NCBI GenBank assembly: GCA_023474425.1
Contig: JAMCXX010000002.1
Span: forward strand, 196,217 to 260,216
Source: Patescibacteria group bacterium
GTDB lineage: Bacteria > Patescibacteriota > WWE3 > JAMCXX01
Length of the DNA: 64,000 nt
Direction of reading: 5' to 3'
Part shown: positions 25,503 to 38,053 of the stretch, one piece after another
Numbering within the stretch: position 1 is the first letter of the stretch
Layout: every line of letters begins with the position of its first letter
Translations under genes and position numbers: made by a program
The notes under the pieces: model-generated
The model's input: only the letters and a program-made list of their open reading frames with translations
What the model was told of the DNA's origin: nothing
The model's database searches: none

Positions 25503-25519
25503 TAAAAATTAGGTCATGT

Positions 25520-25930: not shown

Positions 25931-25954
25931 ATTTAGAATTATTCAAGGTTAATC

Positions 25955-26785
25955 TTGGAGGCCTCTTTCGTCAAGTTTGAGGCCAAGTTGACGGCGCCGA
26001 TTTTTAACTCTTTAATGGATTTAATGTCCAAATATTCCGAGAAATATTTTTTGTTTTTTTTGCCCCTTATTTTACTGCCGCTTAGTGGTGCGCCCGGCCG
26101 CGAGTTTACGCTCAATGCCTCCGGCTCGGTAGTTTTAAAAGGCCAGGTTTTGGGGCAGGAAATTAAAGTGCCTTCCGACAGCAGCGATACCTTTGTTTTC
26201 TCGGCCGATAAATATGAGCTTAAGAATGAAAACGGTCAAATTAAAGTCAGCGCCTTTTCCGCTAAAGAGTCCACGCCCTCTGCCCAAGGTTTTGAGTTAA
26301 ACCGAGGTAGTGAGAGCCTAAAAATTTCCACGGCGGGCGAGGGCTTTAGCCTAACCGACAACGATATTTCCGCTAAAACCGAATTTCCTCTGGCCATTGA
26401 CCGTGCCTCGGGCGCCCTTTCTCTTATTACTCCCGACGGCGAAAAAATCCTTCGCTACACCCCGGCCCAGGTGGCCGACCGGCTCATTAAAGAGGGGGTT
26501 ATGACCGCCGTCCAAGTTTCCCGCAAAGAAGTTTTAGAAGCGTCTTCCTCGGCCTCGGTTTCCGCCGCGCCAAGTTTTAAGTTTTTGGATTCCCTTATGA
26601 GCATTAACAACACCCCGGACGGGAACGCTGTTTATACCGTTAGCGGCACCAGAGCAGTGCGGTTTTTGGGTTTTCTACCGCTCACCTTGAGTGTTGCGGC
26701 TCGGGTGGATGCACAAACCGGGCGCGTGGTAAGCGTTAGCGAGCCCTGGTTTTTGTCAAAACTCGGTTTTCTTTTTACCAACTAG
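25955..26785 (+). CDS. hypothetical exported protein
   Basis: 276-aa ORF with a hydrophobic segment YFLFFLPLILLPLSGAPG near the N-terminus. The start codon is uncertain. No family recognised. Confidence 0.5.
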   Translation: MEASFVKFEAKLTAPIFNSLMDLMSKYSEKYFLFFLPLILLPLSGAPGREFTLNASGSVVLKGQVLGQEIKVPSDSSDTFVFSADKYELKNENGQIKVSAFSAKESTPSAQGFELNRGSESLKISTAGEGFSLTDNDISAKTEFPLAIDRASGALSLITPDGEKILRYTPAQVADRLIKEGVMTAVQVSRKEVLEASSSASVSAAPSFKFLDSLMSINNTPDGNAVYTVSGTRAVRFLGFLPLTLSVAARVDAQTGRVVSVSEPWFLSKLGFLFTN

Positions 26786-26801
26786 CCCTGCCTCCTTCCG
26801 T

Positions 26802-27464
26802 ATGTTGATTGATTTAAGGATTCTTATTCAGGGGCTGGCCACGGGCGACCCCACCTCCTATATTTCCGTTTTTTTGCTTCTCGTTTTAAACGAAGTCGGC
26901 ATTCCCCTGCCCATTGTTTACGAAACCCTGCTCTTAATAACCGGCTATAGCTTGGCCCAAGGGCGGTTCGCCTATTTATTCACCGTTGTTTTTGGCAGTT
27001 TTGGCTCGGTGGTCGGCGCCAGCCTCGTCTTCTTTTTTTTCTACATTTTTGGGCCGGAAATATTGGACTCGCGGCTTTTGCGCCGTTTCCATGCCAAAGT
27101 TAATCTTCTTAAAGAGTTAATTTCCCAGCGGGAGATTACGGACGTGGCTTTGGGGCGCTTGACCCCGGGTTTGGTGGGTTTAACCAGCGTGGCCTCGGGG
27201 CTTTTACGACTTAATTATTTTAAGTTCGTTTTGGGTATTTTAGTTTCCAACCTCGTCTGGGCGGCTATTTTAATTTCGCTGGGGTTTTTTTTGGGCCAGA
27301 CCTCGGAGAGGTTTAGCGGTCAGATTACGCTTTTGGTCGGATTTTTTTCATTAATTGTTTTTGTTTTTACGGCCAAAAGAATTGTAGCCAGACTTCGCTC
27401 CCGCCCAACTCCGCCAATAGTCAGCGGAGAGGCTCAAAAACCTATTAACGAACAGAATATCTAA
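26802..27464 (+). CDS. DedA/VTT-domain membrane protein
   Basis: 220 aa with FLLLVLNEVGIPLPIVYETLLLITGY and RLTPGLVGLTSVASG, typical DedA (SNARE-associated) motifs. Confidence 0.7.
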   Translation: MLIDLRILIQGLATGDPTSYISVFLLLVLNEVGIPLPIVYETLLLITGYSLAQGRFAYLFTVVFGSFGSVVGASLVFFFFYIFGPEILDSRLLRRFHAKVNLLKELISQREITDVALGRLTPGLVGLTSVASGLLRLNYFKFVLGILVSNLVWAAILISLGFFLGQTSERFSGQITLLVGFFSLIVFVFTAKRIVARLRSRPTPPIVSGEAQKPINEQNI

Positions 27465-27535
27465 GGTTAAATGTTATAATTATGGTCGAAGACATTAATA
27501 TTCCGGTGTAGCTCAGTGGTAGAGCGAGCGCCTGT

Positions 27536-28073
27536 AGAACTTTGACAACCGCCTGGATTAAGCTAAAATAGACCTGATGGCGAAAGAAAACCGAAAGTAT
27601 AAAGATAGAGCCTCATACATGGTTGCCGCCGTTTCCAAGAGGCGAAAGCGCTTAAAGGAGATGGCTATTAAGCTTAAAGGATCGAAATGCAACTTTTGTG
27701 GCTATAGTCGGTGCGTTGGTGCTCTTGAGTTCCACCACATCAATGAGGGAACCAAGAACTTTGACCTCTCCACTCGAGGACTTACACGCAGTTGGGACAA
27801 GATCAGAGAAGAACTTAAAAAATGCATTTTAGTCTGCGCTAATTGTCATCGGGAAATCCATAGCGGTTTACTGCAGCTTCCGAAGGTAACTTCGGTTGAA
27901 AAATTGGGTGAACTGTCGGGAAGCCTAAATTCCGTTTAGCCGGAACAGGGTAATCCGCAGCCAAGTCCCGACGCAACGGTCGGGAAAGGTTCAGAGACTA
28001 TGCGCCCAATCCCGAAACGTAAAGTCGCCGGGAAAGAGATAGTCCAAGCCTTAAAGAAATTTAGGGGCACTTG
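27536..28073 (+). mobile_element. group I intron in the tRNA anticodon loop
   Basis: Conserved core elements are present: Q-like AATCCGCAGCCAAGTCC (27952-27968), R GTTCAGAGACTA (27989-28000) and S AAGAGATAGTCC (28034-28045). R and S give the GACTA/TAGTC P7 pairing. With this register the 5' exon ends in U and the intron ends in G. The intron contains an HNH ORF. Confidence 0.75.
27577..27939 (+). CDS. HNH endonuclease (intron-encoded, putative homing endonuclease)
   Basis: 120 aa with CNFCGYSRCVGALEFHHINEGTKNFDLS...LVCANCHREIHSG, the HNH pattern CxxC...HH...N...CxxCHxxxH. It lies wholly inside the intron. Confidence 0.8.
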   Translation: MAKENRKYKDRASYMVAAVSKRRKRLKEMAIKLKGSKCNFCGYSRCVGALEFHHINEGTKNFDLSTRGLTRSWDKIREELKKCILVCANCHREIHSGLLQLPKVTSVEKLGELSGSLNSV

Positions 28074-28206
28074 TAAGCGCTGCGTCGCAGGTTCGAATCC
28101 TGCCACCGGAGCCATAAACCACTCACTTCGTTCGCTCATGGCTATAGCCATCGAGTAAAAACGAAGGGAGTCGAATGTGCTGAGCGAAGTCGAAGCACTA
28201 CCCTTT

Positions 28207-28393
28207 GTGTGCCACGTCTATATTCTTAGAACTTCCAATAACAGCCTTTACATAGGACAAACCTGTAATATCTATCACCAACCGAATTAAAGATCATCAA
28301 GGAGAAAAGGGAGCTAAATATGTTAAAGATGAAGGCAAGAATTATGTGCACAGCTATTAATCCGAGGATAAAGCAGGAAACTTCTACACCTAG
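28207..28393 (+). pseudogene. decayed GIY-YIG nuclease gene (frameshift plus stops)
   Basis: Frame 1 reads VCHVYILRTSNNSLYIGQT... and stops at 28288. The +1 frame continues IKDHQGEKGAKYVKDEGKNYVHSY*SEDKAGNFYT*. It resembles the intact GIY-YIG gene at 17925-18185 and likewise sits about 90 nt downstream of a tRNA. Confidence 0.5.
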
Positions 28394-28947
28394 TAGGCGC
28401 CGAAAACGTTTAATTGGCGAACGGTACTCATACACCCCTTTTTTGTTGCTGGTCTTGAATCAAGTATCTTTACTACGTCGTTCCCAAACTTTGAATAGAA
28501 CAAGCAAAATGAGAGAAAAGCCGATAAAGAAAATTGTAACAGATGACAATTCGGTCAGATTTGGGCAATCAATGAACCGTCAGGAAAAGCAATTGACAGG
28601 TCGTGATTCGTAACCGGGGTTTAAGTAATTTAATGTTAGTAATAAGAAAAACGGTATGGATAGAACCCAAACGGTAACGATTATTTTCTGTGTTGTGCCC
28701 ATAAACACTTAGGTATTGTTTAAACAAAAGAAGCAACAACCATCGTTGCTATCGGCGGTCGAGCTTAAAGACTTACGCACGGGTTGCCCCTTCGTATCTT
28801 GAAGTCCTGCGAATAAACGCTTTTGCGGGCGGATTAAGTTGTGAATATATTTTAACTTGTTAGTTTTAGATTATCAACGGCAATTAAGCAGGTGTGTAGC
28901 GAACGATTGCGAGATCTGACCTTATAGTGCTATCGTGTCTATGCTTT

Positions 28948-29649
28948 ATGACTTACAGTCAGTTGGTGAAAAAACTGAGAGAAATAAAAGAAAGAGGCTT
29001 TGTTAGGACCCACAGGGCTAATGACACCGGTATTGGAAAAACACTCGAGGACCTACTTGGAATAAAAGAGAACAATCTGAGAGTGCCGGATGTTGGTAAG
29101 GTTGAACTCAAAGCAAAAAGGTTAGGTTCTGGCAGTATGTTGACCTTAGCCACGAAATCCCCAGAACCTAAAGGTGCCAATAAGGCATTATTTGAGAGAT
29201 ACAAATACCTAGATGAGTTTGGATACTACAACCTTCATTCCACAATCTGCGGTTCTAAGTCTAATCCTCAAGGCTTCAAACTCGCTTTTAAGGATGGGAA
29301 GCTAATGATTGAAAATAGCGGAGACATCAATGTCTATTATCCATTATCAGTCTTCGCCGATGTTCTAGTTTCTAAATCAAATAAAATACTTCTCGTTTTT
29401 GCGGAAACTAAGGGTGAGCCCAAAACTCTTAATGAACGTTTCCACTTTGTGGAATCTTATTTGTTAGAGGGACTCGATTTCGATAAGTTCAAGAAGGCAG
29501 TGGAAAACGATAAATTAAAGGTAGATATCAGAATTGGTGTTTATAGAAGCGGAAAGTCAAAAGGCAAGTTCCACGACCACGGGACCGGATTGAGGATAAG
29601 TAAAAGGGATTTCTTGGAGCTATTCGCCAGTTATAAACAGATTATTTAG
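28948..29649 (+). CDS. BcnI/MvaI-family type II restriction endonuclease
   Basis: The first ATG is at 28948; the track GTG is at 28927. MTYSQLVKKLREIKERGFVRTHRANDTGIGKTLEDLLGIKENNLRVPDVGKVELKAKRLGSGSMLTLATKSP closely parallels the BcnI N-terminus as I recall it (VGQILERQFGVQENNITLGDLGEFELKGMR...SNLTLF). Confidence 0.7.
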   Translation: MTYSQLVKKLREIKERGFVRTHRANDTGIGKTLEDLLGIKENNLRVPDVGKVELKAKRLGSGSMLTLATKSPEPKGANKALFERYKYLDEFGYYNLHSTICGSKSNPQGFKLAFKDGKLMIENSGDINVYYPLSVFADVLVSKSNKILLVFAETKGEPKTLNERFHFVESYLLEGLDFDKFKKAVENDKLKVDIRIGVYRSGKSKGKFHDHGTGLRISKRDFLELFASYKQII

Positions 29650-31534
29650 TCTTCCTTAGTATTAGAATGCTCTCCTTGGTCATTGTTTCTTCGAGGGCCC
29701 CAACCACGTTAGTAGGTGAGTTCTTGCTTGGCATTCTTTTCCCAGGAATACTTCTAACGATAATGTCCTCGCACAAAAACCCAATGTTCTCCGCCAACTC
29801 CGTTATTATAAAGTCTGTGGGAACCCTGACCTGTTTAACTAGCCTGTTTCCTACAACAACACAAAAGTACTTATTGTCTTTAAGAATTCTGTGAGCTTGC
29901 CGGAGACATTCATCAAGACCTAGGTAGAAACTTAGTACATCTCTGGCTCTGGCCTTATCGCTTCGCTCTATCTGTGATAGGACCTCTTTTAGATATTCGG
30001 ACTTGAGATTGTGTTCCAGATCTTTGGTTGGTCGGCCGCCCAGTAATTCATTATCTACTTTGCTGGCAGTATTCGGATCATCAAACATGTCAATCCATTG
30101 AGCCGAAAGTCTGGAAAACTGCCCATAGGCAACAGTTGTTCGACTGTCTCCGTAGGGTGGCGAAGTAACGATAAGGTCAATGCTGTTTTTCTCAATAATC
30201 GTATCTTTTGAGGTATCACCGTGAATAACCTTTGCCCAAGTATTATTGTTAACGTCCTTGAAGAACTCCCCCATTCCCTTAATGTTTGACTCAGCCTTTT
30301 TTCTGAAGATTGACAGAACATTGGGATTATTTTGGTCTAGTTTCTCTGGATTTATACGAACCAGTTTAAACTCTCCGTTTTTGGTGTTTGACGAAAGTCT
30401 AACAGTCTCGCTAAAAGCAACCATGAAAAAGTTCCTAACCCCTTCGTCATGTATTTCTTTAATTGCTTTTTTAATTTTTCCTAACTCTATAACCACGCTA
30501 TCCTTGAACCAGAAATCTATATTTGTGAAATTAGGTCTTTGAGTATCGCTTTCTTTGACTTTGGTTATTCTATTCAACAAGTCGAGATATTCCTTTGTAA
30601 GGATAGATGGGTCAATCTCTGTAGTTTTCGCTTTGGCAAGAAAGACAGCTAAGGGATTAAGCTCTATGCCATAGGCATTTCTTCCAAGTAGCCGGCTTTC
30701 AACCAAAGCCGTACCGGAGCCGCAGAAAATATCGCAGATAGTATCACCTTTATGGCTGTACGTCTCAATCAATCTTCTAGCGATTTGAGGTATGAACATA
30801 GCGGGATAAGTGTGGAGACCGTGCGTATAAGATTTGGTTTCTTCGCCTCTGTAGTCCCACGAGTAGTCTATTCTCCTGTTCAATTTTGATTGGGAGTTTG
30901 TGGCTTGGTTGGACTGGAATTCGAGATTTCTTATAATCTTTACTACAACCCCTCTGACTTCTACGTCCTCTCTAAAAATTGGAAGCATGGTTGGATTGGC
31001 CGGTTGTAGCCTTATTCGGTTATCTTCCCTGTAAAACTTTTTAAGAGTTGCTTGGTCCTCATCAATAATGGCCACAACCGTCTGACCGTTATCCGCGACC
31101 TTTTGTTGACGTAAGACGACAGTATCCCCATCGGAAATTCCCTCGTTTATCATGCTGTTTCCTCTGACACGAAGGGCGTAATAATCACCAAATTTTCCCA
31201 GATTATCCCTTGTGATGGTGATAGTGTCGGTAGGGTTTTCTATAGCCTCAATTGGTTCTCCAGCGGCAATAGTTCCTATTACGGGGACTTCTAGGGTCTC
31301 CGTGTTTTTTTCGATAGGTGATATTCCACGGGCTTGGTTGTTCTCCTTTAAAAGAAAGCCCTTGTCCTTTAATGTTTTTACATATTGATGAATGGTAGAG
31401 ATGGCCTTAAGTCCGAAATGAGAACTGATTTCCTCAAGGGACGGGGCATAGCCTTTTTTCTTAGAGTGGGAGGTTATAAAGTCCAGCACCTTCTTCTGTT
31501 TTGGAGTTAAAAGTCTATTGACTCTTTTAGGCAT
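29642..31534 (-). CDS. LexA (wHTH + S24 peptidase) fused to an SPPY-type (probably N4-cytosine) DNA methyltransferase
   Basis: 630 aa. Residues 1 to about 205 align along the whole of E. coli LexA: LTPKQKKVLDFI, ARGI, the cleavage site IAAGEP, the Ser motif VRGNSM and the Lys motif ATLKKF. The C-terminal part has MTase motif I DIFCGSGTALVES and motif IV LIVTSPPYGD. It is convergent with the REase gene and overlaps it by 8 nt. Confidence 0.8.
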   Translation of the reverse strand: MPKRVNRLLTPKQKKVLDFITSHSKKKGYAPSLEEISSHFGLKAISTIHQYVKTLKDKGFLLKENNQARGISPIEKNTETLEVPVIGTIAAGEPIEAIENPTDTITITRDNLGKFGDYYALRVRGNSMINEGISDGDTVVLRQQKVADNGQTVVAIIDEDQATLKKFYREDNRIRLQPANPTMLPIFREDVEVRGVVVKIIRNLEFQSNQATNSQSKLNRRIDYSWDYRGEETKSYTHGLHTYPAMFIPQIARRLIETYSHKGDTICDIFCGSGTALVESRLLGRNAYGIELNPLAVFLAKAKTTEIDPSILTKEYLDLLNRITKVKESDTQRPNFTNIDFWFKDSVVIELGKIKKAIKEIHDEGVRNFFMVAFSETVRLSSNTKNGEFKLVRINPEKLDQNNPNVLSIFRKKAESNIKGMGEFFKDVNNNTWAKVIHGDTSKDTIIEKNSIDLIVTSPPYGDSRTTVAYGQFSRLSAQWIDMFDDPNTASKVDNELLGGRPTKDLEHNLKSEYLKEVLSQIERSDKARARDVLSFYLGLDECLRQAHRILKDNKYFCVVVGNRLVKQVRVPTDFIITELAENIGFLCEDIIVRSIPGKRMPSKNSPTNVVGALEETMTKESILILRKTK

Positions 31535-31600
31535 TAATATTATTATAAACCGAAGACTTTACGAAGGTCAAGGGGTATTTATTTAGGGGTGAGGAAAATT

Positions 31601-31912
31601 ATGGCAAATGCAAACACAGTTATCATTCAAGGATATACATTTCAGGGTCCATGGGGTATAGAAACGACGTTTATCGACGTGCCTGGGGTTTATGTGATCT
31701 ATACGAATCAGCATTGGTTGGATGTTGGGGAAACCGATAAGTTAGGTCAGCGAATCAACGGGAACAACCACAAGAGAAAGCCTGACTGGATTAGGAATGC
31801 TCAAAGTTACCCCATCTGGTTAGCCTTTCTGGGAATTTCAAGTCCTGAAGAGCGTAGGAGAATAGAGTCTCAACTTAGATTAGCGTTAAACCCCCTTTGT
31901 GGGGATAGATAG
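31601..31912 (+). CDS. small GIY-YIG-like domain protein
   Basis: 103 aa from ATG 31601; the track GTG is at 31589. PGVYVIYTNQHWLDVGETDKLGQRINGNNH supplies the GIY, YIG-like and R..H elements, and PEERRRIESQLRLALNP supplies the later Glu/Asn. The stop lies 2 nt before the next gene. Confidence 0.5.
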   Translation: MANANTVIIQGYTFQGPWGIETTFIDVPGVYVIYTNQHWLDVGETDKLGQRINGNNHKRKPDWIRNAQSYPIWLAFLGISSPEERRRIESQLRLALNPLCGDR

Positions 31913-31914
31913 CC

Positions 31915-33453
31915 GTGAAAATAAGATCACTCGAAATAACAAACTTTAAAAGGTTTACCGATTTAAAAGTAACTGTTGGGAACGCTACTCAGAAATTGGT
32001 TGTGTTGATCGGCCCCAACGGCTCTGGTAAAAGTTCTATATTCGATGCTTTTGAGCAGATCGGCGGGAGGCAAAAACCTGGATTTGGCGAAGATCAGACT
32101 TACCTGAGGAAAAATCAGGCCCTAGATTGGACGGTGGTGATTGACAGCGACTTAGGAATTTTCACAAAAATTGCCCCAACTCCCAGGAGCCATTTCTATT
32201 TAAGATCTTCTTACAGATTTGATCCTGATTTCCAGAGTGGGTCCATACAACGGAAGGACGAGTTGTTAGGGGATTCTTTAAGGCCAAAGAAGATGATTGA
32301 ACTAGATAAACGAGTTCAAGATAACTACGAAAGATTAGTGGGAACAACGGTAGACGCTCTTTACTCTAAAACTAAAGATTCACTTACAGTTGGGCAACTT
32401 AGGGAAGAATTGATCGGAAAGGTACGCGAAAGGATGCAAAAAGTTTTCCCCGACTTAATGCTAGAGGGGCCAGGGAATCCATTGGTTGAAGGACAGTTTT
32501 TCTTTACAAAGGGTAATTCTCAACACTTCCCATATAAGAATCTGTCTTCAGGAGAAAAGGGTGCCTTTGATATCTTACTAGATTTGATTATAAAAACTCA
32601 GGAATTTAATAACACTGTGATCGCAATTGATGAACCAGAACTCCATATGCATTCTGGGTTGCAGAGAGCCCTGCTTAAGGAGGTTTACGACTTGGTACCT
32701 AACGCATGCCAACTTTGGGTAGCCACACACAGCATAGGCTTTATTCGTGGTTCCTTAGAACTTCTAAGGGCTTATCCCGATGAAGTCGCTTTGCTAGATT
32801 TCTCGGACGTTGATTTTGACCAGCCACAAAATATTAAACCCATTCCTCCAACCGTCGAGAGAATAAGAAAGATATTTGAAGTAGCAATAGAAGATCTAGC
32901 AAACATGTTAGTCCCTTCCAAAATCATTATTTGTGAAGGCTCGCTGATTGCACCAAACGATTCTCCAAAAAAAGAGTTTGATACAAAGATTTTCAGTATA
33001 ATATTCGGTGGTGAGGATGTTTTATTTATTTCAGGGAATAGTAAATCCGCAGCACAAAAATCAGCAGAGCTCCTCCTTAAAATTGTTCAGCAATCTGGTT
33101 CCGTTAGAAACATTCAAAGTATCGTTGATAGAGATAGTCTGACGCAACAACAGATAGACGAGTTTAAAAAGCAAAGTCAAAGTCAGAGGTTTTTATCCAG
33201 AAAAACAATAGAGAATTATTTATTGGATTCTGAGATCATCGATAAATACTGCAACTGTCATAACATTGCTACTGCCAACGTTACATCGAGACTGGCGAAC
33301 ACCATTGATGATGATGCGAAAAGGATTCAGTCAGCGGTGATGCAGCAATGTTCTTATAGCGGAAATGTGGAAGATTTTAAACTGGAATTGGCCAAATGTG
33401 TTTCACCGGACACACAGGTTTATAAACAACTAAAACAAGACATTGATATATAG
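31915..33453 (+). CDS. ABC-type (AAA_21-like) ATPase fused to DUF4435/TOPRIM-like domain (OLD/PARIS-like defence protein)
   Basis: 512 aa with Walker A GPNGSGKSS, signature-like LSSGEKGAF, Walker B VIAIDEPELHMH and H-loop WVATHS. The C-terminal 200 aa carries KIIICEGS...D, SIVDRDSL and TIENYLLDSEII, matching the DUF4435 pattern (xEG, DRD, ENYL) as I recall it. Confidence 0.6.
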   Translation: MKIRSLEITNFKRFTDLKVTVGNATQKLVVLIGPNGSGKSSIFDAFEQIGGRQKPGFGEDQTYLRKNQALDWTVVIDSDLGIFTKIAPTPRSHFYLRSSYRFDPDFQSGSIQRKDELLGDSLRPKKMIELDKRVQDNYERLVGTTVDALYSKTKDSLTVGQLREELIGKVRERMQKVFPDLMLEGPGNPLVEGQFFFTKGNSQHFPYKNLSSGEKGAFDILLDLIIKTQEFNNTVIAIDEPELHMHSGLQRALLKEVYDLVPNACQLWVATHSIGFIRGSLELLRAYPDEVALLDFSDVDFDQPQNIKPIPPTVERIRKIFEVAIEDLANMLVPSKIIICEGSLIAPNDSPKKEFDTKIFSIIFGGEDVLFISGNSKSAAQKSAELLLKIVQQSGSVRNIQSIVDRDSLTQQQIDEFKKQSQSQRFLSRKTIENYLLDSEIIDKYCNCHNIATANVTSRLANTIDDDAKRIQSAVMQQCSYSGNVEDFKLELAKCVSPDTQVYKQLKQDIDI

Positions 33454-33474
33454 ATATAAGGAGGTGAAAAAATA

Positions 33475-33786
33475 ATGGATTTAAAAAATATTCAGCCGGA
33501 GCATATATTGTCATTTTTAATATTCTTTATTGGAACTTTAGGACTGGTTGTTTTAAACGCTTGGTATGCCAATATATTTAAGGTCGGAGCGGAGAAAGAT
33601 GCGGCGGTAAGTGTTAAGGAGGCAGGAATAACTTTTGTGTCAGGCCACTTTCTCGCTTTCTTTGTTTTGCCCTTCGCCATAGTTGTTGGAGCTTCCTTAG
33701 CGATCCTGGGCAAACTTGATTCAGGCGTATCAGCAATTATTGGTGTTGTCATTAGCTATATTGTGCAGAAAGTAAATATCAGATAA
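33475..33786 (+). CDS. small three-TM membrane protein
   Basis: 103 aa with a strong SD (taAGGAGGtgaaaaaataATG). TM helices are ILSFLIFFIGTLGLVVLNAWY, FLAFFVLPFAIVVGASLAILG and AIIGVVISYIV. Confidence 0.55.
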   Translation: MDLKNIQPEHILSFLIFFIGTLGLVVLNAWYANIFKVGAEKDAAVSVKEAGITFVSGHFLAFFVLPFAIVVGASLAILGKLDSGVSAIIGVVISYIVQKVNIR

Positions 33787-33834
33787 TTGCCTATCCAGTG
33801 AGCCTGCCCAAAATTGGGGATAGATTATTTTTCT

Positions 33835-34566
33835 ATGAATATTGATTGGGAAATAACAGAAGAAGATATTAATAAAGTTAAAACTATCGTTGAAGAACAA
33901 AAAAATAGACCGTTCGTCCTAAATAGGTTTAAAAGGAATATTGAAAAAATTGGAATCAATATTTCAGAAGAAAGCTTATGGAAGTTCCTATTACAGGCAT
34001 TACTTACTACTCAAGAGAAGTCGGGTCCTGGGTCCTCAGTGGACAATTTATCTAACGAAAGACCTTTTCCTCTAAGTATGTCCGAAATTAGTACTAAGGA
34101 CGACAAGCGGGCTTATATTTTAGATGTACTAAAAAACCACAGACTTCGATATTACAACAATAAAACAGACTGGATATTTCATGATTACACTATACTAACT
34201 CAAGAATCTATTAAGGCATTGATTAAAAATCTGACCAGTCTTATTGGCAATGATTCTATGCAGCTTGAAAGAGCAGCCGTCCATCAAATAGCTGACAAAT
34301 TTAAGGGCATTGGACCAAAACAATCGAGAAACTTTTTACAACAGCAAGGATTAACAAAATATGTCCTACCTATCGATAGCAGACTAACCAAGTGGTTTAA
34401 CGATAATAAACTATTTCCATTTGCTATTGACCCAAGCTCTTTATCAAGCATTAACTTTTATGAGTTTATAGAGGATGGGGTGTATAGGTTGTGTGAACAA
34501 GCTAACATTTACCCCTGCATTTTAGACGCTTGTATATTTGTGAGTTTCAATAAAGGTGATTATTAA
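33835..34566 (+). CDS. HhH-GPD superfamily (Ogg2/AGOG-like) DNA glycosylase-like protein
   Basis: 243 aa from ATG 33835; the track TTG is at 33814. The helix-hairpin-helix region FKGIGPKQSRNFLQQQGLTKYVLPIDSRLTKW resembles GIGxKxASxFLRxxGxxxxxILDxH of archaeal-type Ogg enzymes. Confidence 0.45.
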   Translation: MNIDWEITEEDINKVKTIVEEQKNRPFVLNRFKRNIEKIGINISEESLWKFLLQALLTTQEKSGPGSSVDNLSNERPFPLSMSEISTKDDKRAYILDVLKNHRLRYYNNKTDWIFHDYTILTQESIKALIKNLTSLIGNDSMQLERAAVHQIADKFKGIGPKQSRNFLQQQGLTKYVLPIDSRLTKWFNDNKLFPFAIDPSSLSSINFYEFIEDGVYRLCEQANIYPCILDACIFVSFNKGDY

Positions 34567-34639
34567 ACTAATTTTTTTTTGAACCAAAATAGCGACCTAT
34601 ACCCGTTCCGTTCTATAACTAAATAGGGAGGTTTCAACA

Positions 34640-34918
34640 TTAGGTTTTCTTAGTACTTCTACTTATGAGTATGAGTATTAAAAATGTGAGAAACGATCCC
34701 AAGAAGCCCGCTTCTAAAGATACCCTCAAAGGTTCGTATTTGTTGCTTACGAATTGTAACGCTTTCCAATCGATTAAAGTCGCGAGCCAGTCCGTGACAT
34801 TCACAAAAGGTATATTTACAAATGCTACCAGCAGGGCTATTCCGCATGAGAAAAGAAACCCATTCACTAAATTTTCAACAAGACTCTTCGAGAACAATGT
34901 GTTGTTTTGCTCGTCCAC
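34640..34918 (-). CDS. small two-TM membrane protein
   Basis: 92-aa ORF in the AT-rich island with helices FLFSCGIALLVAFVNIPF and FLGSFLTFLILILI. No family recognised. Confidence 0.35.
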   Translation of the reverse strand: MDEQNNTLFSKSLVENLVNGFLFSCGIALLVAFVNIPFVNVTDWLATLIDWKALQFVSNKYEPLRVSLEAGFLGSFLTFLILILISRSTKKT

Positions 34919-35114
34919 CTCTTAATTCTATTGCTAAATAGCATACCGGGGCAAATTAGTGATGTTTACCTTATTGCTGGGAAATCAAACTAAAAACCTT
35001 ATCTTTTCTAGCCCCTCTCTTATATCCTGTACCAACTTAAAGTCCTCAAATACCTGTATGATACCGTTAAGATATGTGGTTCTAAGGTTACGTCCCTCGA
35101 GCCAAATTGGGTAG

Positions 35115-35402
35115 CTAGTTAATGGTATTTTTGGAAGACTTTCCGTAGCGGAACCAACCTACTAATATTACCGTTCCAAGGATAACTCCTAATATATTGG
35201 GGATCATGACCGGCGGACTTTTCAATTCCAACCCGTAGAGAATCCAAACGGATGACCCGAACACCATTATTACATACGATGTGGGAGCAATATCCCTAGC
35301 GCTCTTTGTCCGGAAAATTTTAATTGCCTGAGGAAGACTCCCCAATCCCAAAAGAACGCCCGTTATTGTTGCCAGGCCTGCGAGTATTGTCATTAAATTC
35401 AA
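35115..35402 (-). CDS. SemiSWEET (PQ-loop) sugar transporter
   Basis: 95 aa with three TM helices and the PQ motif GSLPQAIKIFRTKSARDI. Confidence 0.75.
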   Translation of the reverse strand: MNLMTILAGLATITGVLLGLGSLPQAIKIFRTKSARDIAPTSYVIMVFGSSVWILYGLELKSPPVMIPNILGVILGTVILVGWFRYGKSSKNTIN

Positions 35403-35553
35403 TTTATCACGGGCCGAAAGCCTTGTATATTGCCTCTAGGCGGTCGCGCCAGCGACAAATTCCTACGGTTTTAGTTCCTTCGTGGGCGGACGAATTTTTA
35501 ACGCTGGGTTCGGTAACTTTCCGGTCGGCAGCAAATTTGCTATTGTCAAAGTG

Positions 35554-35832
35554 ATGAAAAAGAGGATAATCTTCGGTTTAATTACGGCGGCGTTAGTTCT
35601 AATTTTGGCCCTGGGGGTCAACCAATTTTTGGTTTTGCGAAAGGCCCACAGCACGTTTAATAATTATTACGCCTTCCGCGGCTGTGAAAAACTTTTGGAA
35701 AAAACTTCTGACTTTGGCACGTGTCAGACGGCCAACGGCCGGACCATTAAAATCGTCAAATTCCACGACAAGTGGTATTTAGAGGGTGACCTCCCCTGGG
35801 CCTGTTTAGGTAACGTCTGCTTCGGTTTGTAA
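35554..35832 (+). CDS. small signal-anchored protein
   Basis: MKKRIIFGLITAALVLILALG is followed by a Cys-containing soluble part. The track ORF begins earlier at 35482, but its N-terminal extension looks non-coding. Confidence 0.5.
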   Translation: MKKRIIFGLITAALVLILALGVNQFLVLRKAHSTFNNYYAFRGCEKLLEKTSDFGTCQTANGRTIKIVKFHDKWYLEGDLPWACLGNVCFGL

Positions 35833-35883
35833 TTTCTCGTATCCACCTTAAGAATTTCAACAGAATTGCCAGTCGAACGTAAC

Positions 35884-35911
35884 TTGCTGTATGGCGTGCT
35901 ATCTATATAAT
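35884..35911 (+). promoter_or_regulatory. sigma-70-type promoter of the GC-richer small-gene cassette
   Basis: TTGCTG at 35884-35889 is followed by a 16-nt spacer and TATAAT at 35906-35911, 54 nt upstream of ATG 35966. That start has the SD GGAAAGGAGAAGGAG. Confidence 0.5.
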
Positions 35912-35965
35912 AGGTACAACTCTTAACTGCCTCTGCAACCAAAAAACCTCGGAAAGGAGAAGGAG

Positions 35966-36343
35966 ATGTCCAAACAACTGCTTAAAGTTTTCTTTGGTGA
36001 TGGTCTGCTCGCGGTAACTTTAACCGACGAAAAGACCCAAACCTTGCGCTGGTATCGTCCGGAAGCGCACGCCCTTAAAAAGGGGCAAAGATTTCTCGCC
36101 GTCTTTGCCGAAGGTTACACCATTCTTTGCGAAGCGACAGCTGACACCGTCGTCAAGCCGTTTTCGAAGCTCACCGGCGAAGATGTTCGAGGCAGCGGCT
36201 ATCTGACGGCTGAGGAAGCTTTTGCTGACCTTCGCGACCACTATTACGCCGGCAAGGGGCTCAAAGAATCTTATCCGGCCGGCATCATTAGCTACCGCAT
36301 AGCCCAAATTGGCGGCGTTCCGGTTATAAGCCTTAACGAGTAG
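35966..36343 (+). CDS. ASCH/PUA-like domain protein (tentative)
   Basis: 125 aa with a strong SD. The pattern KTQTLRWY...LKKGQRFLAVF...ILCEATADTVVKPFSKLTGEDVRGSGY...AEEAFADLRDHY...AGIISYRI resembles ASCH domains. Confidence 0.4.
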   Translation: MSKQLLKVFFGDGLLAVTLTDEKTQTLRWYRPEAHALKKGQRFLAVFAEGYTILCEATADTVVKPFSKLTGEDVRGSGYLTAEEAFADLRDHYYAGKGLKESYPAGIISYRIAQIGGVPVISLNE

Positions 36344-36350
36344 GGATCGG

Positions 36351-36533
36351 ATGAAGAAGGATTCAGAGTCGTTTAACTTAAGTGTGAATCACAGACGGTC
36401 CGGAATCGCCTCCGCACCGTCTTTTTTGTTCGATAATCGGCGCCGTGAGGCGAAATACGAAACCGAAAAAGCCGTCACCCTCAAAACGGACGGTAACCGT
36501 TTCAACATTACTCTTGTACTACCGCATCATTAA
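36351..36533 (+). CDS. possible small protein (60 aa)
   Basis: Track ORF with ATG 7 nt after the previous stop. No SD and no recognised family. Confidence 0.3.
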   Translation: MKKDSESFNLSVNHRRSGIASAPSFLFDNRRREAKYETEKAVTLKTDGNRFNITLVLPHH

Positions 36534-36603
36534 TCCCATAGCTTTGACAACTGCCGGTTCTGGTGGTAGAATCGGCCAAATATCCAAGAGAGGGAGGCAA
36601 AAA

Positions 36604-36978
36604 TTGAGGAGACTCAAAGCCGGTCAAAATTGGATTTGGTTGGTCCAGGACAGGCACAGAGAGGTTTGCGGAGGTTGTGGCCAGAGAATAAGAAACGACG
36701 TCAGCCACCACGTTGGCGGCGATGACCCCGGGCGATTTCACATTTGCCATGAGAGTGTAGGACGGGTGGTTGAGTTCAAACTGCCCGACGAGCCGCCGGA
36801 GTCAAAACTACTTTTTGAGGTCTGCTCTGTGGACGGCTGTGATTCGGCCCGAGTGGTTGAGGGCGATGATGATACGGTTTGGAACACAAACGGCAAATCG
36901 TATCTTTGGCGCTACAAAAATTTCTTTCGGGTTCGGATGGTTGGTCCTTGCGACCGCCACACTCAAAATTCCAAATAA
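36604..36978 (+). CDS. possible Cys/His-containing small protein
   Basis: A TTG start is preceded by GAGGGAGGcaaaaa and is in frame with track ORF 36445-36978. It contains CGGCG...HH...HICH. The stop abuts the SD of the next gene. A competing antisense ORF at 36508-36750 cannot be excluded. Confidence 0.35.
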   Translation: MRRLKAGQNWIWLVQDRHREVCGGCGQRIRNDVSHHVGGDDPGRFHICHESVGRVVEFKLPDEPPESKLLFEVCSVDGCDSARVVEGDDDTVWNTNGKSYLWRYKNFFRVRMVGPCDRHTQNSK

Positions 36979-36987
36979 GGAGGAGAA

Positions 36988-37324
36988 ATGCCAAAGTCGA
37001 AGCTAAGGCCAATTCACCATGTGGATGAGTGGTGGGAGTGTCCGGTGTGCCACTCGTACAAGTTCCAGTCGGCTAAGGAGGTGGAAAGGGGGGTTGAGGT
37101 TTGTTCCGTTATCTCCCTTTAAGGTCGGCGATAAAGTCCGGTACAAAAACGGCAAGCTAGTGGGTAAGGTCAGTGACATCCAAACTTATTCACAAGGGGA
37201 TCGGGCAGCCCACAAGCACGTCCTTTGCATTACCGTGAGAATCAGCCCGACGGGCGGCAGTTCTATGTTCTACATCCACGAAGATGAGGATGAATCCAAG
37301 CAGCTGGAACTGGACGAAGAATAA
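36988..37324 (+). pseudogene. small Zn-ribbon/SH3-like protein gene interrupted by a +1 frame change at a G6 run
   Basis: ATG 36988 has the SD AAGGAGGagaa and encodes MPKSKLRPIHHVDEWWECPVCHSYKFQSAKEVERG, stopping at 37122. The +1 frame from the G run (37088-37093) continues GLRFVPLSPFKVGDKVRYKNGKLVGKV... to 37324. Removing one G gives a single ORF of about 111 aa. Confidence 0.45.
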
Positions 37325-37335
37325 AGGAGGCAAGG

Positions 37336-37599: not shown

Positions 37600-37662
37600 A
37601 TTTGACTTTCCGGCGGCCTCATGATATACTATAAGGTATATTCTAAGGCAAAGGAGAGTGGC

Positions 37663-37935: not shown

Positions 37936-37942
37936 TCTTAAC

Positions 37943-37986: not shown

Positions 37987-38053
37987 AGCAATTTTTAAGC
38001 CGGTTCTGTTAAATTGAGAGTATGAAATTCAGGCAGGAAGGGGGTGTTTTAAA

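What the first reader, a model, noticed from the sequence alone, without database searches (positions are those of the whole stretch)
28115..34950. AT-richer accessory (defence) island inserted directly downstream of the intron-containing tRNA
From the tRNA 3' end to about 34.95 kb the sequence is visibly more AT-rich than the flanks, and codon usage shifts toward A/T-ending codons. The content is almost entirely accessory: a decayed GIY-YIG gene, an R-M pair, an ATPase-nuclease operon, small membrane proteins, and long non-coding gaps (28394-28947). tRNA 3' ends are classical integration sites. However, no integrase and no direct repeat of the tRNA 3' end was found by eye, so the element may be old or decayed.
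Basis: partly seen in the sequence, partly recalled or inferred. Interest (0 to 1): 0.55.

Follow-up and report, generated by a model that had tools for sequence, protein, structure and literature searches.

The report
Mosaic defence island beside a tRNA
A 7-kb stretch of foreign-looking, AT-rich DNA directly after an intron-containing tRNA gene in a Patescibacteria (CPR) chromosome is a patchwork of separately mobile anti-phage modules; it is an ordinary kind of island, but its restriction-modification methylase is fused to a complete LexA repressor, which I found in no paper.

Summary
Window 28,115-35,100 has GC 0.396, against 0.481 +/- 0.009 for other 7-kb windows. GC3 is 0.31-0.45 against 0.51-0.62 in the flanks, and the tetranucleotide signature is the strongest outlier in the window.

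The content is as listed and can now be named:
- a GIY-YIG pseudogene;
- an R.MvaI-like restriction enzyme convergent with an N4-cytosine methylase fused to a full LexA;
- a small GIY-YIG protein followed by a fused ATPase-DUF4435 (PARIS-like AriAB) gene;
- a divergent Ogg2-like glycosylase and two small membrane ORFs.

The R-M cassette and the ATPase gene each recur at 67-79% identity in other CPR genomes. They sit in unrelated contexts there and never together, so the island is a mosaic.

Homology with the nearest available relative stops exactly at the tRNA's CCA. However, there is no integrase, no recombinase remnant and no repeat of the tRNA 3' end, and the relative's downstream genes are not those right of the island. 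This fits a variable hotspot at a synteny breakpoint, not a demonstrable integrase-mediated tRNA insertion.

Independent assemblies span both junctions. The LexA-methylase fusion keeps its cleavage site and catalytic residues in 120 of 120 homologues and is the most novel element.

The parts
27503..28114 (+). tRNA gene split by a group I intron that carries an HNH homing-endonuclease ORF (27,577-27,939). Its 3' CCA end is the left boundary of the island. The anticodon is UGU (Thr) or GUU (Asn), depending on the exact splice junction.
   Evidence: Rfam RF00028, 83.4 bits, at 27,858-28,066. Exons were read directly. ARAGORN misses the gene. The splice junction could not be fixed. The same tRNA with intron and HNH is present in relatives L087 and L092.
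28121..28171 (+). Stable hairpin directly after the tRNA, containing the perfect palindrome ATGGCTATAGCCAT (28,138-28,151). It is not present in the relative.
   Evidence: RNA fold of 28,112-28,205: -30.4 kcal/mol, z = -4.2, 0 of 200 shuffles as stable. Logan contigs break here: L002 ends at 28,150 and L131 starts at 28,138. Homology to L087/L092 has already ended at 28,114.
28177..28396 (+). Pseudogene of a small UPF0213-type GIY-YIG protein, with one frameshift near 28,270 and a premature stop at 28,358-28,360.
   Evidence: Three-frame reading gives ...FVCHVYILRTSNNSLYIGQT... in one frame, then ...RIKDHQGEKGAKYVKDEGKNYVHSY* in another. Weak tblastn match to the L090 GIY-YIG protein at 28,207-28,272.
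28397..28947 (.). Non-coding gap, GC 0.37-0.42. It lies outside the conserved R-M module.
   Evidence: No ORF with family hits. No Rfam match at E <= 1 except a chance-level IMES-1 hit at 28,946-29,041. DNA homology to other R-M cassettes starts only at about 28,966.
28948..29649 (+). Type II restriction endonuclease of the MvaI/BcnI family, closer to R.MvaI (CC^WGG). It appears intact.
   Evidence: Pfam PF15515, 8e-41, covering profile positions 2-227 of 227. PDB sequence search: R.MvaI 2oa9 3e-35, R.BcnI 2odh 4e-20. PADLOC REase_II 1e-37. The ATG start at 28,948 follows the gene calls in L001 and L131.
29642..31534 (-). Fusion protein. Residues 1-205 are a complete LexA (winged HTH plus S24 autoprotease). 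Residues ~220-630 are an alpha-type N4/N6 DNA methyltransferase of the M.PspGI/M.MvaI kind. The gene is convergent with the restriction enzyme gene and overlaps it by 8 bp.
   Evidence: Pfam LexA_DNA_bind 5e-15, Peptidase_S24 3e-28, N6_N4_Mtase 9e-25. NCBIfam lexA equivalog TIGR00498, 192.5 bits against a cut-off of 110.95. PADLOC MTase_II 1e-136. All 120 listed best homologues have the same architecture. They keep Ala91-Gly92, Ser127, Lys165, FCGSG and SPPYGD without exception.
31542..31571 (-). Promoter of the fusion gene (TTGACC, 18 nt, TATAAT). A direct repeat TTCG-N7-TTCGG lies between the two hexamers and is a candidate operator.
   Evidence: Promoter scan, 11 of 12 matches. The arrangement CCCTTGAC(C/T)TTCG..TTCGG..TATAAT/TATGAT, with 11-bp repeat spacing, is shared with L088, L090 and L111. 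R-M module DNA homology ends at about 31,577-31,593.
31601..31912 (+). Small stand-alone GIY-YIG-fold protein (103-107 aa). It is divergent from the methylase gene and ends 2 nt before the ATPase start codon.
   Evidence: No direct Pfam hit. It does have a family of 145 cluster representatives. Of 50 members scanned, 24 hit Pfam GIY-YIG, best 8e-9. AlphaFold model pLDDT 93.6. Best structural matches are the UvrC GIY-YIG domain (TM 0.61/0.71), T4 EndoII and R.Eco29kI.
31915..33453 (+). Single-gene ABC-type ATPase fused to a DUF4435/Toprim-like nuclease domain (PARIS-like 'AriAB' fusion), 512 aa.
   Evidence: Pfam AAA_15 2e-20 and AAA_21 3e-20. PADLOC AriAB 2.3e-40 is the best model by a wide margin; GajA, PtuA and others score much lower. 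Invariant E341-G342, D356 and D405-x-D407 in 57 homologues. Of 17 C-terminal domains of family members, 7 hit PF14491 DUF4435, best 1.4e-6. AlphaFold model pLDDT 85.7. The ATPase head matches PtuA and SMC heads.
33475..33786 (+). Small predicted membrane protein (103 aa), 21 nt after the ATPase gene, with a strong ribosome-binding site (TAAGGAGGTGAAAA).
   Evidence: ORF and hydrophobic sequence. Ribosome-binding site at 33,457-33,470. No family hit. Called as a gene in L131 and L132.
33814..34566 (+). Divergent Ogg2-type helix-hairpin-helix DNA glycosylase/lyase-like protein (250 aa). It is the most AT-rich gene of the island (GC 0.336, GC3 0.307).
   Evidence: Pfam Ogg-HhH 1.5e-5, 25 bits against a cut-off of 27. 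NCBIfam PRK01229 N-glycosylase/DNA lyase 2.9e-8, below cut-off. PDB 3fhg at E = 0.25 only. The motif GIGPKQSRNFL...PIDSR, with candidate catalytic Lys and Asp, was read from the sequence and is an inference.
34640..34918 (-). Possible small membrane protein (92 aa). It is the last AT-rich ORF and was not called as a gene in the Logan assemblies.
   Evidence: ORF list. No family hit. Absent from the gene calls of L131 and L132. GC 0.391.
34919..35114 (.). Right boundary zone, where GC climbs back from 0.38 to 0.44-0.48. It holds no repeat and no tRNA fragment.
35115..35402 (-). SemiSWEET transporter gene. It is the first gene right of the island with near-native composition (GC3 0.48). It is context, not part of the island.
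   Evidence: Pfam MtN3_slv 1e-11. NCBIfam SemiSWEET_2 9e-17. Composition.

Best explanation
The segment is a horizontally acquired, mosaic defence island in a Patescibacteria (CPR) chromosome. It sits at a variable hotspot that begins at the 3' end of the intron-containing tRNA. It was built from at least three separately mobile pieces, not delivered as one integrase-borne element.

**Piece 1: a compact 2.6-kb Type II restriction-modification cassette (about 28,950-31,595).**
- An R.MvaI-like endonuclease probably cuts unmethylated CCWGG.
- A convergent N4-cytosine methylase protects host DNA.
- The methylase is covalently fused to a complete LexA.
- The LexA part most likely represses the cassette's own promoter. 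It can probably self-cleave at Ala-Gly when RecA is activated, so DNA damage, including self-restriction or phage attack, would raise methylase expression.

**Piece 2: a single-gene ATPase-DUF4435/Toprim protein of the PARIS (AriAB fusion) kind.**
- Here it is preceded by a small GIY-YIG nuclease-fold protein.
- By analogy with PARIS, the ATPase would sense a phage protein, typically an anti-restriction protein, and release a Toprim nuclease that stops translation or growth. This would back up the neighbouring R-M system.

**Piece 3: a very AT-rich tail.** It holds an Ogg2-like DNA glycosylase and two small membrane ORFs of uncertain role.

**What is shown:** the composition, domain content, mobility of pieces 1 and 2, the breakpoint at the tRNA, and the absence of integration machinery.

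**What is inferred:** the CCWGG specificity, LexA autocleavage and autoregulation, PARIS-like triggering, and any defence role for the glycosylase.
For: **Foreign composition.** GC 0.396 against 0.481 +/- 0.009, low GC3, and tetranucleotide r = 0.60 against at least 0.88.

**Defence content.**

**Mobility of the R-M cassette.**
- The same convergent LexA-methylase/MvaI_BcnI pair, with an 8-bp overlap in L088, L090 and L111, occurs in five other unrelated CPR contexts.
- Protein identity there is 67-75%.
- DNA homology to L088, L090 and L111 is confined to window 28,966-31,593.
- The module's GC in those hosts is 0.31-0.39, which fits an origin in AT-richer CPR genomes.

**Mobility of the ATPase.** It reaches 63-79% identity in other contigs. 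In the contexts looked up it has none of its window neighbours and different ones instead, twice beside large serine recombinases.

**Breakpoint.** The relative L092 is syntenic with window 18.4-28.1 kb. Nucleotide homology ends exactly at the CCA.

**The LexA part looks functional.** It passes the lexA equivalog cut-off. The cleavage site, Ser, Lys and the methylase motifs are invariant in 120 of 120 homologues. The promoter spacer repeat is conserved in 4 loci.

**Both junctions are real.** Independent contigs confirm them.

**The fusion form of PARIS is known.** It is documented in PMC9122126.
Against: - No relative close enough was found to show an empty site. The nearest has about 58% identity for most proteins and carries different genes after the tRNA. 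Its right flank does not match the window. 'Insertion' as opposed to 'rearrangement breakpoint' is therefore not proven.
- The four genes from 31,601 to 34,566 are co-directional with gaps of 2-27 nt. They could function as one operon, even though no homologue of the ATPase's three window neighbours was found in the four ATPase contexts fetched.
- The window's own ATPase C-terminal domain does not hit DUF4435 directly. Only its family members do.
- The ATPase-Toprim architecture is shared with OLD and Gabija proteins.
- The LexA operator is a direct repeat, not the palindrome typical of LexA. It is seen in only four related promoters; the L106 and L107 promoters differ.
- The glycosylase match is below curated cut-offs.
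Confidence: 0.72

Rival explanations
1. It is a classical integrase-mediated genomic island or prophage remnant that integrated into the 3' end of the tRNA. It has since lost its integrase and its distal attachment repeat through decay.
For: - It lies immediately 3' of a tRNA, and homology with the relative ends at the CCA.
- Composition is foreign.
- A pseudogene and a 550-bp non-coding gap at the tRNA-proximal end show decay.
- In other CPR genomes the same modules lie near large serine recombinases: L090, L103, L105.
Against: - There is no integrase or recombinase, intact or as a detectable remnant.
- There is no copy of the tRNA 3' end with up to 3 mismatches anywhere in the 64 kb.
- There are no flanking direct repeats above chance.
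- There are no phage-family hits.
- The modules do not travel together elsewhere.
- Large serine recombinases do not typically target tRNA 3' ends (general knowledge).
Confidence: 0.12
2. The region is native DNA that is AT-rich only because of its gene content or weak selection (membrane proteins, low expression). It is not horizontally acquired.
For: - CPR genomes are patchy in GC. Another low-GC kilobase (0.40) lies at 17-18 kb, next to tRNA-Ser.
- The relative's DNA after the same tRNA is also AT-richer than its own flank.
Against: - GC3, not only overall GC, drops in every ORF, including soluble enzymes.
- The tetranucleotide signature is a strong outlier.
- The R-M and ATPase genes have 67-79% identical homologues in distant CPR lineages and in different contexts. 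The flanking core genes are only 45-60% identical to the nearest relative.
Confidence: 0.06
3. It is an assembly or binning chimera, in which foreign contig pieces were joined into the metagenome-assembled genome at the tRNA.
For: - The source is a metagenome-assembled genome.
- One contig from another run ends at 28,150, just after the tRNA.
Against: - L001 crosses the left junction (23,623-32,513). L131 and L132 cross the right junction (28,138-43,019 and 32,849-41,904). All are 100% identical and come from two sequencing runs.
- The L002/L131 break is a 13-nt overlap on a perfect palindrome. That is an assembler artefact, not a junction between organisms.
Confidence: 0.03

Closest known systems
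Defence islands / variable hotspots next to tRNA genes in bacterial chromosomes
   Same: It has foreign base composition. It is a cluster of unrelated anti-phage systems (R-M plus an abortive-infection-type ATPase-nuclease). It sits at a tRNA 3' end that is a synteny breakpoint. It contains pseudogenes and non-coding remnants.
   Different: No integrase, att repeats or transposase were found. The host is an ultra-small CPR bacterium, and the tRNA itself carries a group I intron with a homing endonuclease. No empty site could be demonstrated.
MvaI / PspGI-type Type II restriction-modification systems (CCWGG, N4-methylcytosine)
   Same: The endonuclease is homologous to R.MvaI (3e-35) over its full length. 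The methylase has FxGxG...SPPY motifs, and its relatives are annotated as 'PspGI methylase' or 'cytosine-N4-specific'. The two genes are adjacent.
   Different: The methylase carries an entire LexA (HTH plus S24 protease) at its N-terminus. In this cassette type there is no separate controller (C) protein. Some relatives (L106-L110) do have an HTH_3 gene next to the endonuclease. Specificity and methylation type are inferred, not measured.
LexA, the SOS repressor (TIGR00498)
   Same: Residues 8-204 pass the equivalog cut-off. The winged HTH, the Ala-Gly cleavage site and the Ser/Lys dyad are all present and invariant in the family.
   Different: It is fused to a 400-residue DNA methyltransferase and encoded inside a mobile R-M cassette. 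The only candidate operator is a direct repeat in its own promoter. No regulon is visible in the window.
Methyltransferases with N-terminal autoregulatory HTH domains (for example M.SsoII, M.EcoRII, M.MspI) and C-protein-controlled R-M systems
   Same: A DNA-binding domain on or beside the methylase probably sets the methylase/endonuclease balance by binding the promoter region. This rests on my own knowledge of these systems and on inference for this locus.
   Different: Those regulators have no autoprotease. Here the S24 domain would make the control damage-responsive and irreversible.
PARIS (AriA ABC ATPase + AriB DUF4435/Toprim nuclease), including its single-gene fusion form (Rousset et al. 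2022, PMC9122126; Burman et al. 2024, PMC11464382)
   Same: It has an AAA_15/AAA_21 ATPase followed by a DUF4435-type domain with conserved Glu and DxD. The best PADLOC model is AriAB. It lies next to an R-M system, which fits an anti-anti-restriction role.
   Different: It is only distantly related. There is no direct DUF4435 hit for this sequence and no PDB sequence hit to AriB. The PADLOC alignment covers profile positions 263-562 of 694. An extra GIY-YIG gene lies upstream and is absent from the four other ATPase contexts I fetched. Trigger and target are unknown.
OLD-family and Gabija (GajA) ATPase-Toprim nucleases
   Same: They share the overall ATPase plus Toprim layout. The best PDB sequence hit is a class 1 OLD nuclease (6p74, 2.5e-6).
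   Different: PADLOC GajA and OLD-type models score far lower (about 50 bits) than AriAB (137 bits). The C-terminal domain family matches DUF4435 and not the Toprim_OLD-type models.

Membership tests
Integrase-mediated tRNA-inserted genomic island | Lies directly at the 3' end of a tRNA gene | tested here: met
   The island starts at 28,115, one base after the CCA. Homology to relatives L087 and L092 ends at the CCA.
Integrase-mediated tRNA-inserted genomic island | Encodes a tyrosine or serine integrase, intact or decayed | tested here: not met
   No recombinase domain in any island ORF. tblastn with two CPR large serine recombinases finds nothing in the window.
Integrase-mediated tRNA-inserted genomic island | Direct repeat of the tRNA 3' end (attL/attR) at the far boundary | tested here: not met
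   GGTTCGAATCCTGCCACCGGAGCCA occurs once with up to 3 mismatches. No flanking repeats above chance.
Integrase-mediated tRNA-inserted genomic island | Atypical composition relative to the host | tested here: met
Integrase-mediated tRNA-inserted genomic island | Absent from related genomes that keep both flanks (empty site) | tested here: inconclusive
   The relative L092 keeps the left flank and the tRNA and lacks all island genes. It also lacks the window's right flank. No closer relative was found.
Type II R-M system, MvaI/PspGI kind | Full-length endonuclease of the MvaI/BcnI family | tested here: met
   PF15515 8e-41 over the whole profile. R.MvaI 3e-35.
Type II R-M system, MvaI/PspGI kind | Adjacent DNA methyltransferase with AdoMet (FxGxG) and catalytic (S/D)PPY motifs | tested here: met
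   N6_N4_Mtase 9e-25. PADLOC MTase_II 1e-136. FCGSG and SPPYGD invariant.
Type II R-M system, MvaI/PspGI kind | Recognition of CCWGG and N4-cytosine methylation | not testable with these tools
   Inferred from closer similarity to R.MvaI than to R.BcnI and from source names of homologues, 'PspGI methylase' and 'cytosine-N4-specific'. CCWGG is not depleted in the window: 137 sites.
LexA (SOS repressor) | LexA winged-HTH DNA-binding domain plus S24 domain above the equivalog cut-off | tested here: met
   TIGR00498, 192.5 bits against a cut-off of 110.95, residues 8-204. Pfam domains.
LexA (SOS repressor) | Ala-Gly cleavage site and Ser/Lys catalytic dyad | tested here: met
   A91-G92, S127 and K165 are invariant in 120 of 120 homologues.
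LexA (SOS repressor) | RecA-stimulated self-cleavage | not testable with these tools
   Needs biochemistry or an in vivo assay.
LexA (SOS repressor) | Binds a palindromic SOS box upstream of a damage regulon | tested here: inconclusive
   Only a direct repeat (TTCG-N7-TTCGG) in its own promoter, conserved in 4 related loci. The pattern is at chance level elsewhere in the window.
PARIS (AriAB fusion form) | ABC-type ATPase of the AAA_15/AAA_21 families | tested here: met
   The structural match is to PtuA and SMC heads.
PARIS (AriAB fusion form) | DUF4435 (Toprim-like) nuclease domain with catalytic Glu and DxD | tested here: met
   Indirect. Of 17 homologous C-terminal domains, 7 hit PF14491, best 1.4e-6. 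E341, D356 and D405-x-D407 are invariant. The window sequence itself has no direct hit.
PARIS (AriAB fusion form) | Best match to a PARIS-specific profile rather than to OLD, Gabija or Septu | tested here: met
   PADLOC AriAB 2.3e-40 (137 bits), against PtuA at most 74 bits and GajA at most 50 bits. Coverage of the AriAB profile is partial.
PARIS (AriAB fusion form) | Activated by phage anti-restriction proteins, with an effector that cleaves tRNA | not testable with these tools
   The mechanism is known from PMC11464382 and PMC12409363. It is untested for this distant homologue.
GIY-YIG nuclease superfamily (31,601-31,912) | GIY-YIG fold with conserved Tyr, Arg and Glu | tested here: met
   Of 50 family members, 24 hit PF01541. 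The model has pLDDT 93.6 and matches the UvrC GIY-YIG domain with TM 0.61-0.71. Y35 is invariant and R55, H61 and E93 nearly so.
Ogg2-type HhH DNA glycosylase (33,814-34,566) | Match to an Ogg/HhH profile above the curated cut-off | tested here: not met
   Pfam Ogg-HhH 25.0 bits against 27. NCBIfam PRK01229 33 bits against 183. PDB 3fhg at E = 0.25. It resembles the family, but membership is not established.

The most novel reading that the evidence does not exclude
The LexA-methyltransferase fusion may be a damage-sensing control circuit built into a mobile restriction-modification cassette, and it is widespread in Patescibacteria.

**Proposed mechanism.**
- The intact fusion represses its own promoter through the LexA HTH.
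- When RecA is activated, by phage DNA or by the cassette's own endonuclease cutting under-methylated host DNA, the S24 domain cuts at Ala-Gly.
- Repression is then lifted, more methylase is made, and a free methylase is released.

The R-M system would in effect use the SOS signal as feedback against self-restriction. Alternatively, in these tiny genomes, the cassette may supply the cell's only LexA.

**Support and limits.** The fusion keeps every catalytic residue of both halves in 120 of 120 homologues. It stays intact where the endonuclease has decayed, in L107-L110. I found no paper describing it in the searchable library.
Probability: 0.35. Interest if true: 0.65.

Novelty: new member of a known kind. 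Interest (0 to 1): 0.42.

Why it matters
As a whole this is an ordinary defence island. Its value is as an annotated example from the little-studied candidate phyla radiation. It shows that these minimal genomes exchange compact defence modules (R-M, PARIS-like) at tRNA-linked hotspots without visible integration machinery.

The part worth following up is the LexA-methylase fusion. It is a conserved, widespread and apparently undescribed way of wiring a restriction-modification system to the DNA-damage response. It can be tested directly with cloned genes.

The placement of a PARIS-like gene beside an R-M cassette also fits the idea that anti-anti-restriction systems back up restriction.

Tried and rejected
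- **Closer relatives for an empty-site comparison.**
  - The genome scan with RpoD gave only distant genomes. The best contig, L003, ends 1 kb past DUF4430.
  - DedA homologues are at most 60% identical and lie on short contigs.
  - The metagenome scan with the downstream TreT-like protein found nothing.
  - The scan with a DedA alignment gave L092, whose contig ends 4.4 kb past DedA.
- **Phage origin.** Viral-contig scans found only LexA HTH fragments and no ATPase homologue. PHROGs gave no hits.
- **Strain heterogeneity at the tRNA.** The L002 contig end at 28,150 looked like a population breakpoint. L131 from the same run starts at 28,138, on the same 14-bp palindrome, so I rejected this as an assembler artefact.
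- **tRNA identity.** Enumerating splice junctions with ARAGORN gave Thr, Asn, Tyr and others, and is not decisive. Tyr is unlikely because the variable arm is short.
- **A LexA regulon.** The promoter repeat pattern is at chance level elsewhere in the window. No palindromic box is shared by all fusion promoters.
- **Direct structural assignment of the ATPase C-terminal domain.** The Foldseek search on the full model was dominated by the ATPase head. A profile of the C-terminal domain found no PDB sequence. The assignment rests on Pfam hits of family members.
- **Structured RNA in the non-coding gap.** Nothing was found.
- **Recombinase, controller-protein and DUF2188 homologues from other cassettes.** None is present in the window.

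Full report
**1. Source and setting**

The window comes from a 278,831-bp contig of a 'Patescibacteria group bacterium' metagenome-assembled genome. It is bacterial chromosome: dnaG and rpoD lie at 20.4-23.5 kb, and a tmRNA and two tRNA-Ser genes lie nearby.

At 27,503-28,114 there is a tRNA gene interrupted in the anticodon loop by a group I intron (Rfam RF00028, 83 bits). The intron carries an HNH homing-endonuclease ORF at 27,577-27,939. ARAGORN does not detect the gene. The exons can be read directly. The exact splice junction, and so the anticodon (UGU or GUU most likely), could not be fixed.

**2.

- GC is 0.36-0.42 in every 1-kb bin from 28 to 35 kb and 0.44-0.55 elsewhere.
- At 300-bp resolution the drop begins at about 28,150 and ends at about 35,100-35,200.
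- The segment 28,115-35,100 has GC 0.396. Non-overlapping 7-kb windows have 0.481 +/- 0.009 with a minimum of 0.458, so the island lies about 9.6 sd below them.
- Third-position GC is 0.31-0.45 in all island ORFs against 0.51-0.62 in most flanking genes.
- The tetranucleotide signature of the 7-kb window at 28,001 correlates with the rest at 0.60. Windows that do not overlap it reach 0.88 or more.

The island is not an assembly chimera. Contigs from two sequencing runs are 100% identical and cross both junctions: L001 = 23,623-32,513, L131 = 28,138-43,019, L132 = 32,849-41,904.

**3. Gene content, left to right**

(a) *Hairpin, 28,121-28,171.* A strong hairpin (-30.4 kcal/mol, z = -4.2) holds a perfect 14-bp palindrome.

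(b) *GIY-YIG pseudogene, 28,177-28,396.* This is a small UPF0213-type GIY-YIG gene. It reads ...CHVYILRTSNNSLYIGQT... and then, after a frameshift...KDHQGEKGAKYV...HSY-stop.

(c) *Gap, 28,397-28,947.* About 550 bp has no ORF or RNA-family hit.

(d) *Restriction endonuclease, 28,948-29,649 (+).*
- Pfam MvaI_BcnI 8e-41 over the whole profile.
- R.MvaI 3e-35 and R.BcnI 4e-20.

(e) *LexA-methyltransferase fusion, 29,642-31,534 (-), 630 aa.*
- The N-terminal 205 residues are a complete LexA. They pass the NCBIfam lexA equivalog at 192.5 bits against a cut-off of 111 and hit Pfam LexA_DNA_bind and Peptidase_S24.
- The rest is an N4/N6 DNA methyltransferase (PADLOC MTase_II 1e-136). Its relatives are named 'PspGI methylase' or 'cytosine-N4-specific' by their sources.

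(f) *Small GIY-YIG-fold protein, 31,601-31,912 (+), about 103 aa.*
- It has no direct family hit.
- It belongs to a family of 145 cluster representatives, of which 24 of 50 scanned hit Pfam GIY-YIG.
- Its predicted structure (pLDDT 93.6) best matches the UvrC GIY-YIG domain, T4 EndoII and R.Eco29kI.

(g) *ATPase-DUF4435 protein, 31,915-33,453 (+), 512 aa, starting 2 nt later.*
- It hits AAA_15 and AAA_21.
- The best PADLOC model by far is the fused PARIS protein AriAB (2.3e-40).
- E341-G342, D356 and D405-x-D407 are invariant in 57 homologues.
- The C-terminal domains of 7 of 17 family members hit DUF4435.
- The single-gene fusion form of PARIS is documented (PMC9122126).

(h) *Membrane ORF, 33,475-33,786.* 103 aa.

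(i) *Ogg2-like glycosylase, 33,814-34,566.* A 250-aa protein that resembles Ogg2-type glycosylase/lyases below the curated cut-offs. It is the most AT-rich gene of the island (GC3 0.31).

(j) *Possible membrane ORF, 34,640-34,918 (-).* 92 aa.

The next gene, a SemiSWEET transporter (35,115-35,402), has near-native composition.

**4. The island is a mosaic of separately mobile modules**

*The R-M cassette.*
- The LexA-methylase gene has more than 120 cluster-level homologues at 67-75% identity. All share its architecture, and the taxon names given are all CPR (Roizmanbacteria, Paceibacterota, Vogelbacteria, Parcubacteria).
- In five other independent contexts it is convergent with an MvaI_BcnI endonuclease gene; in L088, L090 and L111 the two overlap by 8 bp as here. 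The neighbours are unrelated each time.
- DNA homology between the window and L088, L090 and L111 runs only from about 28,966 to about 31,593. That is the two genes plus the methylase promoter.
- The module's GC in those hosts is 0.31-0.39 against 0.41 here. This fits import from AT-richer CPR genomes with some amelioration.

*The ATPase gene.*
- It has homologues at 63-79% identity.
- In the contexts looked up (71-72% identical) it stands without the GIY-YIG, membrane or glycosylase genes. It lies twice beside a large serine recombinase.
- More distant relatives (37-40%) occur in cyanobacteria, in proteobacteria and on a Zymomonas plasmid.

None of the other island genes was found in any of these loci.

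**5. Relation to the tRNA**

The closest relatives available share only 55-60% identity for the upstream DedA-like protein. One of them, L092 (a 98-kb JGI contig), is syntenic with window 18.4-28.1 kb. The shared order is PMT-family glycosyltransferase (18,981-20,210), dnaG, rpoD, DUF6580, DUF4430, a 276-aa ORF, DedA, and then the same tRNA with intron and HNH.

Nucleotide alignment shows that homology ends at the final A of the CCA and is random afterwards. Downstream, the relative has a 290-aa ORF, bacA and a nucleotidyltransferase. None of these occurs in the 64-kb window, and its DNA there is also somewhat AT-richer than its flank. Other relatives (L083, L084, L085) have yet other genes between DedA and the tRNA or after DedA.

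The tRNA 3' end is therefore a sharp synteny breakpoint and a variable spot. An empty site with the window's right flank could not be shown.

There is also no integration machinery:
- no integrase or recombinase domain;
- no remnant detectable with CPR serine recombinases as queries;
- no second copy of the tRNA 3' end with up to 3 mismatches;
- no boundary repeats above chance;
- no phage-family proteins.

I therefore prefer 'defence hotspot built by successive acquisitions at a tRNA-linked breakpoint' (0.72) over 'decayed integrase-borne tRNA island' (0.12).

**6. How it most likely works**

*Shown:* the domain content, the conserved catalytic residues and the gene arrangement.

*Inferred:*
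- The endonuclease cuts unmodified CCWGG, and the methylase makes N4-methylcytosine there.
- The LexA half of the fusion binds its own promoter.
  - The promoter is TTGACC, 18 nt, TATAAT.
  - A TTCG-N7-TTCGG direct repeat lies in the spacer. It is conserved with 11-bp spacing in four related cassettes.
- The fusion can cleave itself at Ala91-Gly92 using Ser127 and Lys165. All of these are invariant in 120 of 120 homologues, as are the FCGSG and SPPYGD methylase motifs. The HTH is the most divergent part (55% mean identity, against 69-71% for the other two domains), as expected if operators co-evolve.
- This would tie methylase supply to DNA damage.
- The ATPase-DUF4435 protein would act like PARIS. 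An ABC ATPase senses a phage protein, classically an anti-restriction protein, and frees a Toprim nuclease that cleaves tRNA and halts growth (PMC11464382, PMC12409363). That complements the adjacent R-M system.
- The role of the upstream GIY-YIG protein is unknown. It is not a regular partner.
- The glycosylase may be plain repair or a modified-base defence enzyme. Only a resemblance is established.

**7. Comparison with known systems, and novelty**

The island as such is a new member of a known kind. The R-M enzymes, the PARIS-like fusion and the GIY-YIG domains all belong to known families.

The LexA-methylase fusion is the exception. Full-text searches for it returned nothing relevant, although the library lacks most subscription journals. 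Methylases with N-terminal regulatory HTH domains are known (my own knowledge: M.SsoII, M.EcoRII). None that I know of includes an S24 autoprotease.

The fusion remains intact where the endonuclease has decayed into fragments, in L107-L110. This suggests that it has a value of its own.

**8. Verdict**

Interest is moderate (0.42). It comes mainly from the LexA-methylase fusion and from documenting module exchange in CPR genomes.

Noticed in passing
window 29,642-31,534 (-); loci L088, L090, L106, L107-L110, L111: A complete LexA fused to an N4-cytosine DNA methyltransferase is widespread in Patescibacteria. More than 120 protein clusters at 67-75% identity share this architecture. The cleavage site and both catalytic centres are invariant. 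The gene is always convergent with an MvaI/BcnI-type endonuclease gene. I found no paper on it.
   Followed up: yes
L107-L110 (for example L107 7,863-8,407): In one lineage the endonuclease next to the LexA-methylase is broken into 122-aa and 60-aa fragments, while the fusion gene and an HTH_3 controller-like gene stay intact. The fusion therefore appears to persist as an orphan.
   Followed up: partly
window 17,952-18,185 (-), 28,177-28,396 (+); L085 2,491-2,745; L090 246-479: Small (about 77-84 aa) UPF0213-type GIY-YIG genes sit next to tRNA genes repeatedly. An intact one lies beside tRNA-Ser(gct) at 18,290-18,378. The decayed one lies just 3' of the intron tRNA. In relative L085 one lies just 5' of the same tRNA. 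They may be selfish elements that home near tRNAs.
   Followed up: partly
window 27,503-28,114; L085 2,717-3,060; L087 1,076-1,696: The group I intron in this tRNA is conserved in relatives. The HNH ORF is present in the window and in L087/L092 but absent from the intron in L085, so the homing endonuclease is an optional passenger. ARAGORN misses the split tRNA.
   Followed up: partly
window 28,121-28,171: A strong hairpin with a perfect 14-bp palindrome (ATGGCTATAGCCAT) lies immediately after the tRNA. Short-read contigs from one run break exactly on it. It is absent from the relative. Its function is unknown; it could be a terminator, a processing site or a recombination site.
   Followed up: partly
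window 15,466-15,850: Rfam finds a tmRNA (86.5 bits), but ARAGORN does not report it.
   Followed up: no
window 35,966-37,935: A GC-rich stretch (0.49-0.54) right of the island holds a run of small co-directional ORFs with no hit in Pfam, NCBIfam or PHROGs. The 177-aa ORF at 36,445-36,978 is called differently in the Logan assemblies (a 124-aa product).
   Followed up: no
L103 2,862-7,400 and L105 2,986-7,524: In another genome the homologous ATPase-DUF4435 gene lies next to a large serine recombinase and a diversity-generating retroelement (bAvd plus reverse transcriptase).
   Followed up: no
L106 4,209-8,787: In a Paceibacterota contig the LexA-methylase/endonuclease cassette is flanked by a CD-NTase (CBASS-like) gene and a NUDIX gene. 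There too it sits in a defence cluster.
   Followed up: no
L083 1,254-1,938; L084 1,851-2,701: Between rpoD and the DUF6580 gene, relatives carry different toxin-antitoxin pairs: PIN/MazE-type in L083 and nucleotidyltransferase/HepT in L084. The window has other small ORFs there. This looks like a second small variable spot in the same neighbourhood.
   Followed up: no
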